From the human T2T-CHM13v2.0 reference genome, Homo sapiens, in the NCBI RefSeq assembly GCF_009914755.1, contig NC_060925.1: 64,000 nucleotides of DNA; one strand, 5' to 3'. The translations under genes were made by a program, and so were the position numbers. How positions within the stretch are numbered: position 1 is the stretch's first letter; each line of letters starts with the position of its first letter. The notes under the pieces were generated by a model. That model saw nothing but the letters and a program-made list of their open reading frames with translations. It was not told where the DNA came from and searched no databases. This document shows positions 15,745 through 45,110 of this stretch, one piece after another.

Positions 15745-17295
15745 GTTTTTTATGAGAAGTTAGGAAAGTGAAAGAAGTCGAGAGAACCTGTAAAAGGAGA
15801 GGTGTTGTTTTTGTTGCTTGGTCATGACAGCTTGATTCAGTTCAATAGACATTTGTTGAGCTTCTGCGTGTCCTTCCTGCCACAAAGGATGGAATCATGG
15901 GCTGGACAGAGAAGAATTCTGGGCATGGAGGTCAGTGACAGCTGCCCGTAAGTAGGAGAGTGTAAATCCATGAGTCAGGGAAGCACATCAAGGACTGGAA
16001 GCGAGGGCTCAGAGTGGTTGCTGAAAGCCATATGCTTTTGTGTAGTACGAGGCTTGAGCCTGAAATCTGTTGCCTAGAGATGATTCTGTTCTGTTAGGCT
16101 GCCAGCTCGGTGCTTTTGCCCTGTGGCTCAACATCCTAGAACCGTAAATGCTGTGGAGGTCAGAGAGTTGGAGATACAGTGAGCTATAACACATGGCATT
16201 CAAGCAGGGGAAAAAGTCAGATGGACATGTAACTATGTAATTATAGTGTGTCTCCAGTGTTGTGTGATTACAAAGGAGGGAGAAATTGCTTCCTGTTGGA
16301 AAGATGCCCGAGGCTTCATGAAGGAGGAGATGATTGATGTGCTGATTGGCCGCCAAACTGCCCCTGCCCTTACCTTTCCATCTCTGTAATTTCCACCCAG
16401 TTACTTAAGCCAAAAATCTGGAGGAGTTATCACCAATTCTCTCCTTTTCTTAATCTTCCCCACATCCAATCTATCACCAAATTGCTTAGCTTCTGTCTTA
16501 AAAAGAGAGCTCAACGCTCTCAATTTTACTCTTTATTCATTGCCACCACTGGAGCCCTGGGCACATCACCTGTGGCTGAGACTACTGAAAAAGCCTCACC
16601 TAAGGGTGGTTTAAAATTCTACTCATTTTCCTCTTTTATCAGCAGTTTTTGCAGCAGCCAGAGTAATCTTTCAAAAAATAATCTAAGATCCTGCCACTCC
16701 CCTGCTTAAAAACCTTTGTAGATTTCTGTATTAGTCGGGATCCAGCTGTGAAACAACTTTGGGTATTTCAAGCAGGGAATATTAATACAAAGATTTGGTT
16801 GCATAGGTACAAATAGAGATGGAAGGCAACCCAGGGCAGGCAGCCGTTACCATGTTTACACTGGAGGCACCCAAGCCCTGGAACCTGGAACCTACTCAAC
16901 CATGGTGAGTCCTGCCTGGGGGTAGCTGGGAATTCAGTGGGAGGGGCTGTCTGGGGGGGAAGCTCCGTGGCAAAGGAGACACCACCATGGCCAACTAATG
17001 CCAGCTAGAGCCAAGAGGGAGAGGGGAAATACTCGGGCTCCTCTTTTCTTTCTTTCTTCTAGTCTCCCCCTGGGGCCTCCCAGTGGTCAAACCTTGCTAG
17101 AGCCAGTTCTCTAGGGAGTCTGGGGAATGCTGAAGGGTGGAAACAGATGTGACAGGAGTGTGGTGCAGTAAATTTCAGGCACTGGCTGAACTATTTATGC
17201 AGACTGGGTTTGGCTCGTAGGTGGAATAGAAGGCTGTTGGATTTGTCTGTCAGAAAGTACCATAGCACAGGAATCTGGTCTGCCACTCCAGATCT

Positions 17296-37990: not shown

Positions 37991-38499
37991 GAGAGACCAC
38001 CTTGTGGCTTGGTGCCCCCAGGCACGCACTTGGGAGGCAGGGCAGCAGGTGGTGGTGGCAATCCCCCCAGAGTGGGCCCTGGGGAAGGGGTTAGAGGGAT
38101 TCTTCTACCAAAAATGGGAGGGAACAGCCAGCTAGCTGTCCGAGGTGGGGCTGAGATGTGCGGCCCTCGGAGTTCTCTCCTTATTGCAGCACCTCTAAAC
38201 CTTACCAACGCGGCATATCATTATTTCTTTAATCTGTGTCTTCTGCAGTAGACTGTAAGTTTATGAGGGCAAGAATCCAGTCCACTTTGTTAAATTCTGG
38301 ACACCTGGGGGCCCAGCCTGGTCCGCCGCGGATGCTCCTAATTTCAACATCATTTATCGAGCTCCACTGTGTGCCAGTTTGTGGGTCAGGCCCGGGATGT
38401 AGCACTGAGCAAGCCAGAAGCCTTGGCCTGGAAGGCAATGCCATTAACCTCTTTCTTTCTCTTCTCTATTTCCCTGTGACCTTGGCCCCATTCTTCCTC

Positions 38500-38546
38500 C
38501 CTCCCTCCCTTCCCCACTCCTTGTCTCTGCCCTCTCCCTCCCACAG
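38500..38546 (+). promoter_or_regulatory. Polypyrimidine tract and 3' splice acceptor
   Basis: ctccctcccttccccactccttgtctctgccctctccctcccacAG|. Confidence 0.85.
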
Positions 38547-38559
38547 AGCAATGTTCTGT

Positions 38560-39130
38560 GATGGTGCCCGAGATGCGTGGACTGAGCCCAGACCGCAGGC
38601 TGCCCGAGCCCGCCCCCTGCCCGGCTGCGGGGAGCCCTGAGCCCAGGTCCGCGGGCCGCCGCCAACGCCACGTCCTGGCCCTGCCGGAAGAAGAGGCATG
38701 GCGGCCCCAGCAGTGCGCTCTGCTCGAGGCCGACGCCTCGGACGAGGTGGGCATGCTGCCGGCTTCCCCGCGCGCCGCCTCTGGCTTCGACAACTTCTTC
38801 CAGGTGCAGGAGGGCGAGGGCCAGGGCTGGGAGGGCGCCATGGCACTGGAGGCGGGCTCCAGCCCTTTCCTGCCGGTGAGCCCCGAGGTCATGAAGCGGC
38901 GGCGCGGGGGCCTCATCGAGCAGCGCGACATCATCAAGGCCCACGAGGCGCACAAGATGCAGAGCACCCCGCAGGCCCGGCGCAAGGAATGGGAGTGAGT
39001 ATGGCGGGGACGCGGGGGCGGGCATGGCTGGCTGGGCCTGAGGTCGGGGTGGGTTCCTGGAGCGGATGGGCCCCGTGAGGCCGCCCTGGAGGGTCGGGAG
39101 ATGCTTTCGCTGTGCTGCGACTAACGAGAG
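38560..39130. promoter_or_regulatory. Intragenic CpG island over the coding exon
   Basis: Very high GC and dense CpG compared with the CpG-depleted rest of the window. Confidence 0.85.
38561..38994 (+). CDS. CACNA1E: Coding part (434 nt, phase-2 donor) of exon 38547-38994; probable alternative upstream exon of CACNA1E encoding an N-terminal extension MVPEMRG...ARRKEWE of Cav2.3 alpha-1E
   Basis: Seen: acceptor, 14-nt leader, gtgATGg start, open frame, nearly all of the last ~35 codons end in G/C, GA|GTGAGT donor, downstream G-runs. Recalled, not searched: a CACNA1E transcript with exon limits c.-14 to c.434 joining to the exon that starts MARFGEAVV. Confidence 0.75.
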
Positions 39131-40673
39131 GCTGGACCCTCTGGATGAGGTCCTCGTGGTCAGTCCCTGATCTCACCACCCGGCTGTAGGCCTCGTCCAG
39201 CCTCACTGAGGCGTTCAGCTGTCAGATGTGGGTGAATCAGCCTTGCCCCCAAGGCTCACTTGTTTTACTAAGAGCCTGTGGAGAAAGAACTGGGGTCTGT
39301 TTCATTCTCTGAGCTTTCCTGAAAGCCAGGGAGAATCCTTCACAACGTGGATCATCTATTTCATCTTTACTTCAGGAACTGCAGCTAACCCTGCCTTTTT
39401 AATATCCTCCTTGGATGAATGATTACATTTTGGGCACATCTCCAGTGGATGGAGGAAAATGTCCAAGATCTGTGTGGCCACTCCTGGCTTTATTTCTGCT
39501 CTGTTTGTGTAGGGCAAAAGGCCAACTTTAATTCACACCTGTTGAGAATTTTGGCTTTTTCTTCTTAGGAGTCCTAAATTAAAGGAAGATGGGATTTCAC
39601 TTAATTCTCTCGGTTGCCCCAGGTTTTTGCTCCATAGAAGGACTTTGCTTTGTCCTGTGGATGCCGGAGTTTACTCGGCATGCTGGCATGCCCTGTGGTC
39701 TGTATGTCTTCATCTCTTCTTGCTTTAGATTGTTGACTTGCTAGATGTCATCAAGTACAAAGAGATTAGTCACAGATGTATTTTGATGGTGGTGGTCGTG
39801 GTGGGATTTACCTACTTGGTTTCAGTGAATGTTCTGGATGATACAAGTAGGGGTAAATGAGCTGATCTCTGTTTCATAAGGATGTTAATGTTTGTTAGTT
39901 CGCTCATTCATTCATTCAGTGAGTCCGAATGTATGCCGGGCTCCTGGGATTCAGAGAGGAGTTGGGCACAGCCAGCATTCAACAAATCTCTTGGTTGTTC
40001 ATCTCTCAGCACTATTAGTATTTAGAGCCTTGCATACCTGTCTTTAAGTGCCAGGCAACATTCCAAGCACCTTACATATATCCACTCATGTTAATCTTCA
40101 CCATAACTATGAGGTAGGTACAGTTATTAGCCACATGTAACCAATGAGGCACAGAGAAGTTAAGTGACTTTCTCAAGGTCACGTGGATAACAACCGCATT
40201 GTTACTGTGATTTGATATTAATTAGTAATTTGAACCCTGGCAGTCTGGTTGTGGAATCCATGCCTTTAACCATGATGGCACAGTGCCTTTCATTCTAACT
40301 CTCAAAGTACTTCTCTCAACAACCTATTGAGATGCCATGGTAAGAGCACTGGTGTTGGGGTTTGGAGACTTGGGTCTAATTCCCAGGGTGACCTAATTAG
40401 TGGTGTGACCTTGAGTAAGTCACCTCATCATGACTTCGAAAGACAAGTAGGAGGGAGTAGACTTCCTTTAAATACAATGCAGCTCTGATAGCTGGCCTTT
40501 CTTCATATTTAGAAGTACTATTTTTTAATGCACCTCCATCTTATCTTTCTAAGAGGACCCTGAACAACTTGAGGGCTGAGACTGTCATGCACATTGTTCA
40601 TGTCACTCAATGCCTATCATCTGGCCTAACCCAAAAAATCCCACAATACTCAATGAAAAACTAGCTTTACCAT

Positions 40674-40938
40674 GACTAGCAATGTGGAAATAACTTTTAT
40701 GTCTCTAAGTTAAACTTTACTGATTGGAGGATGTCAAGATCTAGTACCAGCCACCTACCTGGGGTGCTGGCGGGGATGATTGGGAGACTGTTTTCACTTG
40801 GGCAGGTCCATGAAGAGGTAAACCAGGGTACACACATCAATGGCCTTGGGGAATGTCAGCCTTTAGGGGTGTGGCAGTGGAGGAAGAGCACATGAAGGAG
40901 GTGAGAAGGAGTAGAAGGAGGTGGGAGGGTAACCAGAG
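40674..40938 (+). repeat. Diverged local duplication, copy 2; runs into antisense L2-like sequence
   Basis: Matches 36631-36853 with substitutions and indels. Confidence 0.88.
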
Positions 40939-41303
40939 GGTATAGGGACAAAGAAGTAAGGAAAATGGTGTGTTCAGAAGGAAGGTCATCATCTCCATAG
41001 AATGTTGCTGAGAGGTCAAATAAAATGAAGATAGAGAAGGAAACACTGGCTTTGGCAACACAGAGATGACCTGAATGGGAGTAGTTTCCACAGGGCGATG
41101 GGGTCAGTAGCCCAGTTGGAGTGGGTTGAAAAGAAAATGGGAAGTGATAGAGACAGTGATGTTGCCCCATCCTTCTCTGCTCCCCAACACTCACGGCCTC
41201 ATCATGGCTTTTCCCCTCACCACCCAAATTCCTTAGCCTCATGGCTCTGTACATGCCTTAATTTGATCTTCTCCACACCCCTCCCCAGTTCTACGAACCC
41301 TAA

Positions 41304-41922
41304 TGTTACTGAGCAAAGAGGGCTTGCTGCTCGGGGCACTAGAAGCCAATACTACAGCACTGGGTTTTTGAGAAGAGAAGCTTTTTATTGCATGTCAATT
41401 CACAAAGAGACGGGATGTCAAGCCCAAATCTGTCTCTCTGTCCTCGCTTCAAGGCAGTATTTTCATTAGAAAAGGTTCAAGGGATTAGTAAGTGATTGGT
41501 GGAGGGAAAGGGGAGGTCTGGAAAGTCCTTGGACATGCTCAGTTATCTCTTCATGCTACCTCACAGGTCGCATGTGAAAATTCTTGAGGACTTAGTATGA
41601 AACATGTCATGGAAGTTCAGGCTGTGGTGTCAGCAGGCTTGTTCTGCAGACGCCAGTAGGCCAGGCCATCTTGGTTCCAACCGATGTCAGCCAGTTTTTT
41701 CTTGATCTCACGTTGTGGGGAATTTCAGCATTTCTGCAAGTTGTTTCTTTTCTTATCTGCCATTCTGCAAGCTCAAGAATATCTGTTAGTCATTGGTTTC
41801 TTACTCTTTGGGGCACAGTTTCAGCTTCAGCTTTTCAGCAGGTTGTTTCTTTTCTTATCTGCTATCCTGTAAGCCAAAGAATGTAGTCATTGGCCTCTTT
41901 AACTCTTTGGGGCACGGTTTCA
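41304..41922 (-). mobile_element. ERV1-class solo LTR (possibly LTR26-like)
   Basis: TG...CA ends, 4-bp TSD ctaa (41300-41303 and 41923-41926), tttatt (AATAAA on minus) at ~41383. Confidence 0.85.
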
Positions 41923-42139
41923 CTAATACACTGTCTGGCACTCATGTTTCATCATCAGCAAAGTCCTGTTCATCCTCCTCATCTTCTCTGGAAGTCCCCT
42001 TCACTCTCTTATTTCTGCTGGAGCCTCCCCCCAGGAATGCGGCTTGCTCTGCAGCTGCCTCATGTGACAGCTGCTTTCCCTTCCACGCTGCCTTGGACCC
42101 TGGAGTCTAGAGAAGCAATTTGCTCCTCACTATTGCTTC

Positions 42140-45110
42140 CAGACCATTACTCCCCTCTCCTGTCCTAAAAATGCCAGCTGTGGCGTGCATGTCATCAGAT
42201 AATACCACCTACTACCCCTCGTTGCCACCATCTACAAACTCCCAAGTCACTTGCTTCATTCCAGGAAGAATGGGTTAGCCCTGGGTTTACTGCCTCTCTT
42301 CCCCACGTCTTCAGCTGCTGGCAGTTCTTAGTGATTTCAGTATCCATGTAGATGACCCTTCCTGCACCCTGACCTCTTGGTTCCTTAGCCCCTTCTGTTT
42401 GGTGACTTTGCCTTCTTGCTTCCTGCTGACAGCTCACCTCCATGGTCTGCCTGGACATTGTCGTAACTGCATTACTCCATAATCTCGGTTTCAAGCATCC
42501 CACTGTGTGATCACCCCCTCTTTTCTCTCCACTCCCTCTAGTGCTCAGTTCCCAAGATTCTTTAATCTTACTGCATCCACAAGACACTGATCCTATTACC
42601 TTTTCACTATCCCCTTCCCCAGTCATGTCACCATTTCCCATCTTATCAAACTGAACTCCATCATAAGCACCAAACATATTTTCCAGATAAAATAGTGACC
42701 TTTCACTTGAAGTCTCCTCCTACCCTCTCAAGCTCTTTCTTCTACCAACTTCTAAGATAGAATGAATCATCCACAAAGGGCAAGAATGCTGGAGCTCAAG
42801 TTGGTTTCTAGTGTACTTCATGCTTCACCATCATTATAATCTCCTTATTTTCACCCTCAACTTTGTTGTCCCTCTGCTGCTTTGTTATACCTTGTCTGGC
42901 AAGACTTCAGCCCTGCTAAATCCCACTTTCCCCTATTCTTCATGTACATATGGGCAGGTGACCATAGCTATAGAAAAAGTCACAACCACGCCGATTGACC
43001 TCACTGTGAATTGATGACTGCCACCTCCAGTTGGCCCTTAGTCCTGCCCAGAAATCTTACTACTTTTCCCTTTTCTATTCACTCTCACACTCCTCTAGAG
43101 ATTATTTCACATGCTTTTCCCTTAACTCTCAAATCCCATCATTTCCTGCCAGCTCGCTCCTAGCTCATGACTACAATTGCCTTCCTACTTCACTGGGAAA
43201 ATAGCAGCAATCAGGAGAGGCATGTACAGGCTCCATCCACTGCACTGACCGCCTGCTGCATCTGGTCCCTGGTACCAGGCCTTTACCTTCTGTTACTGTG
43301 GACTGACCACCCCTCAAGTTCCATGTGGAGTCTGTTGCCCATGTAGAGAAAAATGAGCCCCTTTGTTTATTCTGTCTCCATTTTTTTTTCTTACAATTTT
43401 CTCTGGAACCCATTCCAATCAGGTCTTTGTCCCAGGCAAACAAACAGCTGTTGACATGGTGACATTGGCCTTCCCAAGGCAGAATCCAATGGGTGTTCCT
43501 TCGTGTCCATCTTCCTTGACCTAGCAGCAACATTTGATCACTTCCTCTTTCTTGAAACTCTTTTGTCCTTATTTTTTATATTTTATGTTTTTTTAGAGAC
43601 AGGATTTTGCCGTGTTGCCCAGACTGATCTCAAACTCTTGGCCTCAAGTAATCCTCCTGCCTCAGCCTCCTGAGCTAGGAGTACAGGTGAAAGTGTTTTG
43701 TCACATGGCTTTTACGATACCCACTCTTGGTTCTCCTCCTATGTTGTGGGTTGCTTCTCAATCTCTTGCTAGTTTCCACTTCCTTTTCCCAATCCTTACT
43801 AAACACTGGATGTCCCAGGGCTTGGTCCTCAGCCTGTTCTCTTCTCACCAGTGCTTACTTCCTAGTGCTCTTGCCCAGTCCCAGACCTTTGGTTAGCATC
43901 GTATACTGCTGACCTCTAAATTGGTGTCTGTACTCAGGACCTCTTCCCTGAATTTAAGATACCACCCACTTATTCACCATCTTTACTTGTACATCCATCG
44001 ACATCTCAAGCTGAACATGTCTAACATCAAAATATTGATTTCTCTCCAAACCTGCTTCTCTTGTAGTTTTCTCTTTCATTAAACCTACATTTTTTCTGTT
44101 GCTGGGGCCAGAAATGTTGAAGTCATTTTGATTCTCACATTGACACTCAATTCTTGCCAATCCCCAGTGTCTCCCCCCTCAAAATGTATCAGATCACCAT
44201 TCACCACCTCTGCTGCTGTCTCCCTGGTCCAAGCACCTTTTATTATTTTTATTCCACACACGTATATGATACTAGATGCCCAGCACTATTCTAGGTACTT
44301 TATAAATATTAATTAATTTATCCATGTAATAATTGATTGAAGCTGGTACCATTATTACCATTATTGTCCCCATTTTTGCACTTGGGGGATAGAGAGTTTA
44401 AGTCACTTGCCCAAGATCATAATGTCAACCACCTCTTAATGAGCCTCCCTGCCTCTGCCCCTCCCTGCTAGACTCTGTTTCCCCAACTGCAGCTAAAGAT
44501 CCTTACTTTTTCTTTTTTGATTCACAAAGGATTTAGAAAGGTAGAACAAGTAGTTTCTGTCCAAGAGTCTTAAGAAATATTTCATATCAGTCCTTAGCTC
44601 AGTGCATGATTTCCATCTTCTCCCTCTTCCCCCTGCCCAGCCAGCCTCCTAAAGATGCATGAATGTCTTTGGTTTGATTTCTTCATCTTTCCCCTTAACT
44701 CATTCTGCACTGGCTACACTGGTCCCTTGTTATGCCTTGAATGTACTCAGACCTCCCACATCAGGCCTCTGCCTTTTGCTGGTCCCTTTGCCTAGAATGC
44801 TTTTCCCATTTATCAGGATGGCTCCTCTCTCATTTCATTTAGGTTTCTGCTCAGAGAGAACTTCCTGATCACCCTATTTAAATAGCATTCCCCCATTGTC
44901 ACTCTCTTTCCCTCTTTATTTTGCTTTATTTTTCATCATAGCCCTTATTGTTTCCCCAACGGACACACAAACACACACACATACATACAAGCACAGATAT
45001 TTTGCACTGGAGTGCAAGCTTCTTGAAAGCAGGGCCTTTGTCTTACCTTCAGGGTCCAAAACAGTGCCTAGTGTGCAGTTGACTCACAATAAGTGTTTGC
45101 TGAAAGAATG
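42140..45110 (+). mobile_element. Long fragmented L2 with nested Alu monomer fragment (~43585-43687) and MIR
   Basis: Pyrimidine-rich L2 motifs (ccttgacctagcagcaacatttgatcacttcctctttcttgaaac; acatctcaagctgaacatgtc) and 3' end caataagtgtttgctgaaagaatg. Confidence 0.7.

What the first reader, a model, noticed from the sequence alone, without database searches (positions are those of the whole stretch)
38561..38998. Dual-outcome exon: N-terminal extension of a Cav2.3 channel when spliced, self-terminating small protein when not
Seen: the donor lies inside TGG GA|G TGA GT, so the unspliced RNA reads W-E-stop, a complete 145-aa ORF. Recalled: splicing joins GA to G-ATG of the canonical CACNA1E first coding exon, giving W-E-MARFG. 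Both routes yield the identical ...RRKEWE module, either tethered to the channel or free. Cav2 N-termini are established sites of G-beta-gamma modulation and dominant-negative suppression, so an extra module could act in cis or in trans (inference). Candidate intronic poly(A) signals: ATTAAA 39578-39583 and AATAAA 41019-41024. Caveat: GTGA donors often contain in-frame stops by chance.
Basis: partly seen in the sequence, partly recalled or inferred. Interest (0 to 1): 0.8.

Follow-up and report, generated by a model that had tools for sequence, protein, structure and literature searches.

The report
Conserved upstream coding exon of CACNA1E
This is a real, deeply conserved alternative first coding exon that adds about 145 extra residues to the front of the Cav2.3 calcium channel, while the stop codon just behind its splice site looks like an ordinary by-product of the splice signal.

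Summary
ATG 38561 to TGA 38996-38998 is a 145-codon ORF, and the exon ends at 38994 inside TGG GA|GTGAGT.

The recalled junction also holds. 70 kb downstream, the canonical CACNA1E start codon is preceded by ...CCTCAG|G ATG, so splicing gives ...KEWE-MARFG in frame.

The exon is coding and old:
- Its last ~40 residues are nearly invariant from sharks to mammals.
- 47 gene models join it to M-x-RFG.
- A paralogous exon with the same GA|GTGAGTATG donor lies 94 kb upstream of CACNA1A, whose ATG has the same acceptor one base upstream. CACNA1B has neither.
- Paralogue dN/dS is 0.16.

The "self-terminating" half is not special. Any phase-2 GTRA donor reads T-R-A. 15 homologous ORFs read on past the donor. 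Poly(A) hexamers are not enriched.

No transcript or protein data were examined, and seven literature searches turned up no paper on this extension.

Verdict: an annotated but apparently unstudied N-terminal extension isoform, with no support for a free peptide. Interest is moderate.

The parts
38547..38994 (+). Alternative 5' coding exon of CACNA1E. The acceptor AG is at 38545-38546 and the exon ends two bases into the last Glu codon.
   Evidence: Hub annotation lists it as an exon of other CACNA1E transcripts. Sequence read.
38561..38998 (+). 145-codon ORF. The start ATG is at 38561 (context GTGATGG) and the stop TGA at 38996-38998 lies in the intron. In spliced RNA the frame continues into MARFG.
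   Evidence: Orthologous starts MVPEMRGLSP in rat and mouse.
38876..38995 (+). Conserved 40-residue module VSPEVMKRRRGGLIEQRDIIKAHEAHKMQSTPQARRKEWE. Seventeen columns are invariant across 10 Cav2.3- and Cav2.1-type sequences.
   Evidence: Paralogue dN/dS is 0.16 over the last 33 codons.
38921..38962 (+). Only predicted secondary-structure element, a helix at residues 121-134. The rest of the extension is predicted disordered.
   Evidence: AlphaFold2 on alignment A2: mean pLDDT 58.9, and 87 for residues 121-130.
38995..39003 (+). 5' splice site GTGAGTATG in phase 2. It contains the in-frame TGA. The CACNA1A paralogue has the identical nine bases.
16836..16904 (+). Upstream non-coding exon of some CACNA1E transcripts. 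It carries two upstream ATGs (16852, 16902). After joining to 38547 their short ORFs end at the junction and at TGATG overlapping the main start.
   Evidence: Hub annotation.
38551..38640 (+). Out-of-frame upstream ORF of 29 codons that starts 10 bases before the main ATG and overlaps it.
39578..39583 (+). ATTAAA hexamer proposed as an intronic poly(A) signal. It is at background density.
41019..41024 (+). AATAAA hexamer proposed as an intronic poly(A) signal. It is at background density.

Best explanation
The exon 38547-38994 is an ancient alternative first coding exon of CACNA1E, used by transcripts that start at a distal upstream promoter. Translation starts at ATG 38561. The exon is spliced across about 70 kb to an acceptor that sits one base before the canonical start codon, inside what is otherwise the 5'UTR of canonical exon 1. 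The result is a Cav2.3 channel with 145 extra N-terminal residues.

Most of the extension is disordered and evolves moderately fast. Its last ~40 residues (KRRRGG-LIEQRDIIKAHEAHKMQ-STPQARRKEWE: a basic cluster, one short helix, a second basic cluster) are almost frozen. They most likely act as a docking or regulatory motif placed just ahead of the N-terminal region that controls G-protein inhibition and dominant-negative suppression in Cav2 channels.

The TGA right after the donor is an incidental consequence of a GTGAGT donor in phase 2.

Shown here: the sequence anatomy, the frame compatibility, the conservation and the paralogy. Inferred: that the extended protein is made in human brain, and what the module does.
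For: 1. Anatomy: ORF, donor and phase. The acceptor CCTCAG|G-ATG has 15 of 20 pyrimidines upstream, at window coordinate 109162-109164.
2. Annotation: the hub table lists 38547-38994 as an exon of other CACNA1E transcripts.
3. Orthologues: 41 proteins at E<=0.01. They include Cav2.3 models from rat, mouse, Podarcis, Gallus, Anas, Ascaphus, Megalops, Gadus and Rhincodon, with ...KEWE directly followed by MARFG. Of 253 proteins then held, 156 carried the motif, and 47 of those are joined to M-x-RFG.
4. Paralogy: a second copy lies at G000:C19:13725990-13726139(-), 94 kb upstream of the CACNA1A start. It shares 24 of 33 residues and the same GA|GTGAGTATG donor. The CACNA1A ATG is preceded by CTCTTTGCAG|A-ATG, with 14 of 20 pyrimidines. 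P/Q-type models in Panthera, Galeopterus, Scotinomys, Dromiciops, Mauremys and Caretta join KEWE to MARFG. CACNA1B has no such exon, no AG before its ATG, and 7 of 20 pyrimidines.
5. Protein-level constraint: over the 33 shared codons pS is 0.57 against pN 0.15, giving dN/dS 0.16.
6. Structure: one helix at 121-134, the rest disordered.
7. Background: the neighbouring canonical N-terminus holds the RAR motif needed for G-protein modulation and dominant-negative suppression (PMC4940211, passages read).
Against: - No RNA, Ribo-seq or mass-spectrometry data could be examined. The hub table does not say what kind of record the human transcripts carrying this exon are; they are simply not the selected one.
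- In transcripts that include exon 16836-16904, three upstream ATGs precede the main start. This should lower its use.
- In human CACNA1A, the two short proteins that a source names as CACNA1A (81 and 89 aa) join the paralogous exon to other exons (C19:13644827-13644901 and C19:13580547-13580606), not to exon 1. The in-frame route is therefore not the only one used there.
- The module matches no Pfam family and gave no lead in the protein atlas. Its function is a guess.
- The AlphaFold model is of low confidence overall.
Confidence: 0.8

Rival explanations
1. Dual-outcome exon. Besides the extended channel, unspliced or intron-polyadenylated RNA is stable and translated into a free 145-residue protein ending ...RRKEWE, which acts in trans on Cav2 channels.
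For: - The unspliced frame does stop at once, and the split codon gives Glu either way.
- Of the 96 homologous ORFs not joined to another exon, 81 also stop right after the donor.
- In human CACNA1A, source-named short proteins of 81 and 89 aa consist of the module plus a short alternative tail. Early-terminating products of the paralogous exon are therefore at least annotated.
- Free Cav2 N-terminal fragments can influence channels in trans (PMC4940211).
Against: - The stop is forced by GTGA in phase 2.
- 15 of the 96 read on for 5-360 residues, 12 of them starting WV or WG. Precise termination is therefore not preserved.
- These 96 are not independent lineages.
- Poly(A) hexamers are not enriched after the donor.
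- A retained intron would make the RNA an NMD target (inference).
- The conserved phase and the conserved acceptor one base before the ATG in both paralogues argue that selection acts on the fused product.
Confidence: 0.08
2. The exon is transcribed but serves mainly as a regulatory or non-productive leader. uORF-laden upstream-promoter transcripts would make little extended protein.
For: - Three upstream ATGs sit in the joined leader, one of them overlapping the main start.
- The human CACNA1A fragments splice the paralogous exon to exons that end the frame early.
- In human CACNA1A the ancestral start MLSRPSYYDAL lies in a different frame from the module.
Against: - The module is frozen at the amino-acid level from sharks to mammals, while synonymous sites between the paralogues are near saturation.
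- The whole 145-residue ORF is 87-89% identical between human and rodents and recognisable in salamander and teleosts.
Confidence: 0.07
3. The ORF belongs to an independent small-protein gene that gene predictors wrongly fuse to the channel.
For: Many database entries are stand-alone proteins of 80-290 aa from this exon.
Against: - Those entries end at the donor, read into the intron, or carry exon 1 plus intron 1 read-through. This is typical of intron-blind ORF calling.
- The exon lacks its own terminal features.
- The phase-matched acceptor before the ATG is present in the two genes that have the exon and absent in the one that lacks it.
Confidence: 0.05

Closest known systems
Predicted N-terminally extended Cav2.3 and Cav2.1 isoforms in public annotation (source-named isoform X models; human CACNA1A fragments)
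   Same: Same exon, same KEWE-MARFG junction. The hub annotation already lists 38547-38994 as a CACNA1E exon.
   Different: These are database models. The searches found no paper that describes or tests the extension. Channel numbering in the paper read starts at the canonical Met.
Canonical Cav2 N-terminus with the RAR motif (G-protein modulation, dominant-negative suppression)
   Same: Cytoplasmic, N-terminal, basic and highly conserved. The new module lies about 45-60 residues upstream of it in the extended protein. It has a loosely similar Q-A-R-R stretch (my comparison by eye, not tested).
   Different: The RAR motif is in exon 1 of all three Cav2 genes. The module is on a separate distal exon, only in CACNA1E and CACNA1A. 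No function has been shown for it.
Alternative first exons of Cav1.2 (CACNA1C) that give long and short N-termini (recalled, not checked here)
   Same: Promoter choice changes the cytoplasmic N-terminus of a high-voltage-activated calcium channel.
   Different: There the first coding exons replace each other. Here the extra exon is added in front of the complete canonical N-terminus, through an acceptor inside canonical exon 1.
In-frame stop codons embedded in the 5' splice-site consensus GTRAGT
   Same: With two codon bases in the exon, the next codon is T-R-A, i.e. TAA or TGA. This is exactly the W-E-stop seen here and at the CACNA1A paralogue.
   Different: Nothing differs. This generic property is why the second 'outcome' carries little information. 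The share of phase-2 donors that behave this way, roughly two thirds to three quarters, is recalled from consensus frequencies and was not computed here.

Membership tests
Alternative 5' coding exon giving an N-terminal extension of CACNA1E (Cav2.3) | Lies in the gene, on the same strand, upstream of the first canonical coding exon | tested here: met
   Hub annotation. Canonical MARFG exon found at window coordinate 109165 on the + strand.
Alternative 5' coding exon giving an N-terminal extension of CACNA1E (Cav2.3) | Consensus donor and a matching acceptor that keep one open frame into the channel | tested here: met
   GA|GTGAGT. CCTCAG|G-ATG with 15 of 20 pyrimidines. GA+G = Glu, then MARFG.
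Alternative 5' coding exon giving an N-terminal extension of CACNA1E (Cav2.3) | Protein-level conservation of the exon's frame | tested here: met
   Orthologues from shark to rodents. The paralogue has 24 of 33 identical residues and dN/dS 0.16.
Alternative 5' coding exon giving an N-terminal extension of CACNA1E (Cav2.3) | Spliced transcripts and protein observed in human tissue | not testable with these tools
   No expression, Ribo-seq or proteome data on hand. Only annotation models.
Exon with a functional intron-terminated product (intron retention or intronic polyadenylation giving a free small protein) | The stop right after the donor is preserved beyond what the donor consensus gives | tested here: inconclusive
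   81 stop at once and 15 read on, out of 96 ORFs not joined to another exon. The rows are not independent, and the expected share is itself high.
Exon with a functional intron-terminated product (intron retention or intronic polyadenylation giving a free small protein) | Poly(A) signal placed to end the RNA soon after the stop | tested here: not met
   3 hexamers in 38995-45000 against 83 in 64 kb on the + strand. The nearest is 580 bases away. No enrichment.
Exon with a functional intron-terminated product (intron retention or intronic polyadenylation giving a free small protein) | Stable unspliced or intron-terminated RNA | not testable with these tools
   No RNA data.
Any described protein domain family | Significant match to a curated profile | tested here: not met
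   Pfam gave 0 families at E<=10. The atlas gave no usable hit.

The most novel reading that the evidence does not exclude
The frozen ~40-residue module is an ancient regulatory element shared by Cav2.1 and Cav2.3 and older than the split of cartilaginous and bony fishes. It would work both tethered and free.
- Tethered: it docks a partner, or acts as an autoinhibitory basic-helix-basic motif, next to the G-protein-sensitive N-terminus. Its RRRGG-L/V core resembles kinase pseudosubstrate sites; this is recalled and untested.
- Free: a mini-protein made from early-terminating transcripts (intron read-through in CACNA1E, alternative short exons in CACNA1A) competes for the same partner in trans.
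Probability: 0.1. Interest if true: 0.7.

Novelty: new member of a known kind. Interest (0 to 1): 0.4.

Why it matters
CACNA1E and CACNA1A are major presynaptic and dendritic calcium channel genes and important epilepsy, ataxia and migraine genes. Clinical variant interpretation and nearly all functional work use proteins that start at MARFG.

If the extended isoforms are made, three things follow:
- About 145 residues (Cav2.3) and about 65 or more (Cav2.1) of coding sequence lie 70-94 kb outside the region usually screened.
- Those residues include a motif as conserved as the channel core.
- They sit next to the N-terminal determinant of G-protein inhibition.

The work also shows that a stop codon just inside a GTGAGT intron should not by itself be read as a designed alternative product.

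Tried and rejected
- Pfam on the 145-aa ORF and on the four overlapping ORFs of both strands: no families. The minus-strand ORFs of 182 and 193 aa are taken as by-products of 71% GC.
- Protein atlas on residues 100-145: no usable hit.
- Profile search of 1.84 billion representatives with alignment A2. The profile unintentionally kept the exon-1 columns, so most of the 150 rows listed (of 212 hits) are ordinary Cav2 exon-1 matches. Only 43 of the 140 new proteins carry the module. All are close to the vertebrate A or E types. The search therefore says nothing about invertebrates or jawless fishes.
- Module-only profile search: 361 hits, of which only the best 120 are listed. All that carry a name are vertebrate. 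The weak tail was not visible.
- Third paralogue near CACNA1B: not found at E<=10 with either copy.
- Hydrophobic-moment scan: the predicted helix is not among the most amphipathic 18-mers, so I do not call it amphipathic.
- The tail of the Bos mutus protein P0178 (KEWE joined to another sequence) has no convincing match in the window or in the 60 kb after it.
- Fold search was not run, because the model is mostly below pLDDT 70.
- No complex prediction was run, because no partner is proposed on evidence.
- Literature:
  - Searches found nothing on this extension.
  - One search was badly framed and uninformative.
  - PMC5448149 and PMC6889285 were checked by term search only and do not discuss it.
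  - Supplements and most subscription-journal papers were not searched.

Full report
**What is in the sequence**

On the + strand, ATG 38561 opens a 145-codon frame that ends at TGA 38996-38998. The hub annotation gives 38547-38994 as an exon of non-selected CACNA1E transcripts. The bases bear this out: CCCACAG|AGCAATG at the 5' end and TGG GA|GTGAGTATG at the 3' end. The exon thus ends two bases into a Glu codon (phase 2). ATTAAA at 39578 and AATAAA at 41019 are present.

The ORF length is not evidence by itself. The region is 71% G+C with CpG observed/expected 0.70. It carries four other ORFs of 125-193 codons in other frames and on the other strand. None of them matches Pfam.

**The recalled junction is correct**

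The window's genome is held, so I fetched the 60 kb after the window. I found MARFGEAVV... at G000:C1:180839165, which is window coordinate 109165. The bases before it are TGTGTGTCTTCTGTCTGTTTAAACCTCAG|G ATG: an AG with 15 pyrimidines in the 20 bases before it, one base ahead of the start codon. Joining GA to G-ATG gives ...K-E-W-E-M-A-R-F-G across an intron of about 70.2 kb. Canonical exon 1 can therefore serve either as a first exon or, from this internal acceptor, as a second or third exon.

**The exon is coding and very old**

A word-indexed search of 5.8 billion proteins gave 41 hits at E<=0.01. They include source-named R-type channel models from rat, mouse, two Podarcis lizards, chicken, ducks, geese, passerines, the frog Ascaphus, tarpon, cod and whale shark. 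In these the extension ends ...RRKEWE and is followed directly by MARFG.

Human is 87-89% identical to the rodent proteins over all 145 residues. The start MVPEMRGLSP is shared with them. Weaker blocks (HVLALPEEEAW, S-F/Y-D..L/F-Y) are recognisable in turtle, frog, salamander and teleosts. The last ~40 residues, VSPEVMKRRRGGLIEQRDIIKAHEAHKMQSTPQARRKEWE, hardly change.

**A paralogue in CACNA1A, none in CACNA1B**

Searching the human genome with the ORF gave one other match, G000:C19:13725990-13726139 on the minus strand. It reads ...RRRGGVVDHRDVILAHQAHKIHSTPQARRKEWE, with 24 of 33 residues identical. It ends in the same GA|GTGAGTATG.

The CACNA1A start codon lies 94.4 kb downstream at C19:13631585. 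It is preceded by CCCTTTGCTCTTTGCAG|A ATG, again an acceptor one base before the ATG, with 14 of 20 pyrimidines. Source-named P/Q-type models from jaguar, colugo, a singing mouse, monito del monte and two turtles join KEWE to MARFGDE.

CACNA1B shows neither feature:
- There was no match at E<=10 with either copy.
- There is no AG at that place.
- Only 7 of 20 bases before that position are pyrimidines.
- None of the 47 joined models continues with the Cav2.2-type MVRFG.

Over the 33 shared codons the two human copies differ at 57% of synonymous but only 15% of non-synonymous sites (Nei-Gojobori, dN/dS 0.16). Selection has therefore acted on the peptide.

A module-only profile found 361 proteins, of which the best 120 are listed. 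Every one that carries a name is a vertebrate: cat sharks, bamboo shark, an electric ray, sturgeon, arapaima, salamander, snakes and mammals. The exon therefore predates the split of cartilaginous and bony fishes and the A/E gene duplication. My searches cannot say whether it is older. The large profile search was swamped by exon-1 matches because the profile kept those columns.

**What the extension looks like**

AlphaFold2 with the 20-sequence alignment gives mean pLDDT 58.9 and a single helix at residues 121-134 (QRDIIKAHEAHKMQ; pLDDT 87 for 121-130). Everything else is coil.

Across ten A- and E-type sequences the invariant positions, in human ORF numbering, are R114, R115, G116, G117, D123, I125, A127, H128, H131, K132, T136, P137, A139, R141, K142, W144 and E145. 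The last 38 residues have net charge +4. The first 107 have net charge -7.

This is the pattern of a short linear docking motif in a disordered arm. No Pfam family matches it and the atlas gave no lead. In the extended protein it lies just ahead of the canonical N-terminus. The conserved RAR motif of that N-terminus is required for G-protein modulation and for dominant-negative suppression in Cav2.1 and Cav2.2 (PMC4940211; abstract and passages of the introduction, results and discussion read). That paper numbers residues from the canonical Met.

My mechanism is an inference: promoter choice adds a partner-binding or autoregulatory motif next to that determinant.

**The 'self-terminating' half**

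With two codon bases in the exon, the first intronic codon is T plus donor positions +3 and +4. The consensus GTRAGT makes it TAA or TGA. So W-E-stop is what most phase-2 donors give. The share, about two thirds to three quarters, is recalled from consensus frequencies and was not computed here.

Of the 253 proteins held, 156 carry the end of the module:

| Outcome after the module | Count |
|---|---|
| Stop right after it | 81 |
| Joined to M-x-RFG | 47 |
| Read on with a T-initial codon | 15 |
| Joined to something else | 11 |
| Cut off | 2 |

Of the 15 that read on, 12 start WV or WG, as from GTGGGT, and run for 5-360 residues. These rows are database clusters, mostly teleosts, not independent lineages. 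They show only that the stop comes and goes with ordinary donor variation.

Poly(A) hexamers: there are 83 on the + strand of the window (54 AATAAA, 29 ATTAAA). Three lie in 38995-45000, where about 7.8 would be expected at the window's average density.

A fully processed mRNA that kept this intron would carry a stop far upstream of many exon junctions, and so would be an NMD target. This is an inference from the established rule.

None of this disproves a free peptide. It removes the sequence-based reasons for expecting one.

**Points against, or complicating, the main reading**

- I saw no RNA or protein data.
- If exon 16836-16904 is included, the leader has three upstream ATGs:
  - 16852: 17 codons, ending in a TGA formed at the exon junction.
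  - 16902: 5 codons, with its TGA overlapping the main start as TGATG.
  - 38551: 29 codons, out of frame and overlapping the main start.
- The main frame is open through that whole exon but has no in-frame ATG there.
- In human CACNA1A, two short proteins that a source names as CACNA1A (P0261, 89 aa; P0220, 81 aa) join the paralogous exon to other exons. One lies at C19:13644827-13644901, between the upstream exon and exon 1. The other lies at C19:13580547-13580606, beyond exon 1. Both end 24 and 16 residues later. So early-terminating products of the paralogous exon are at least annotated, by alternative splicing rather than intron read-through.
- In human CACNA1A the conserved start MLS-R/P-PSYYDA lies in a different frame from the module. 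The human ORF in the module's frame starts at MTPCTT, giving a 65-residue extension.

**Comparison with what is known, and novelty**

The exon and the extended proteins are in public annotation as gene models. In that sense the feature is known.

I found no paper on it:
- CACNA1E or CACNA1A with 'N-terminal extension'.
- Cav2.3 or CACNA1A with 'alternative promoter'.
- The peptide strings themselves.
- CACNA1E with 're-annotation'.
- Two annotation papers checked by term search only.

The library lacks most subscription journals, and supplements were not searched. I cannot claim that it is unpublished.

It is a further example of a known kind, an alternative first coding exon that lengthens a channel's N-terminus. 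It is unusual for the degree of conservation and for being shared by two of the three Cav2 genes. The dual-outcome idea adds nothing that the splice-site consensus does not already explain.

**Verdict**

- Observation: confirmed.
- Interpretation: half supported.
- Best explanation: a conserved N-terminal extension exon with an incidental stop, confidence 0.8.
- Interest: 0.4.

Noticed in passing
L002 (G000:C19:13724490-13727639), minus strand, about 1600-1720: In the human CACNA1A upstream exon, the conserved start of the extension (MLSRPSYYDAL, matching MLSPPSYYD in marsupial, snake, shark and salamander proteins) is in a different reading frame from the conserved module. The human ORF in the module's frame starts later, at MTPCTT.
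   Followed up: partly
L017 (G000:C19:13644827-13644901, minus) and L022 (G000:C19:13580547-13580606, minus): Two further exons are joined to the CACNA1A upstream exon in short source-named human proteins of 89 and 81 aa. One lies 13 kb upstream of exon 1 and the other beyond exon 1. Both end the frame soon after.
   Followed up: partly
L011 (G000:C1:144571096-144571380, minus): A second copy of the first coding exon of CACNA1B on chromosome 1 scores exactly like the chromosome 9 copy (61% to CACNA1E exon 1, E 8e-26). It is probably a segmental duplication.
   Followed up: no
L007 about 5432 (window coordinate about 109432); also L012 and L010: The first coding exon of all three Cav2 genes ends ...TGG CC|ATATCCT. 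This looks like a U12-type AT-AC 5' splice site. The class assignment is recalled, not tested.
   Followed up: no
window 38558-38563: After joining exon 16836-16904, the 5-codon upstream ORF from ATG 16902 ends in a TGA that overlaps the main start codon (TGATG). This arrangement is seen at termination-reinitiation sites, but it may be chance.
   Followed up: no
window 38250-39250: A CpG-island-like composition (GC up to 0.71, CpG observed/expected up to 0.70) is confined to the exon and the first ~250 bases of the intron. The intron start has several GGG runs in both CACNA1E and CACNA1A.
   Followed up: no
protein P0178 (Bos mutus, source-named hypothetical protein): The E-type module is joined after KEWE to an unrelated 41-residue tail (RTRDEISEATW...). 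That tail has no convincing match in the human window or in the 60 kb after it.
   Followed up: partly
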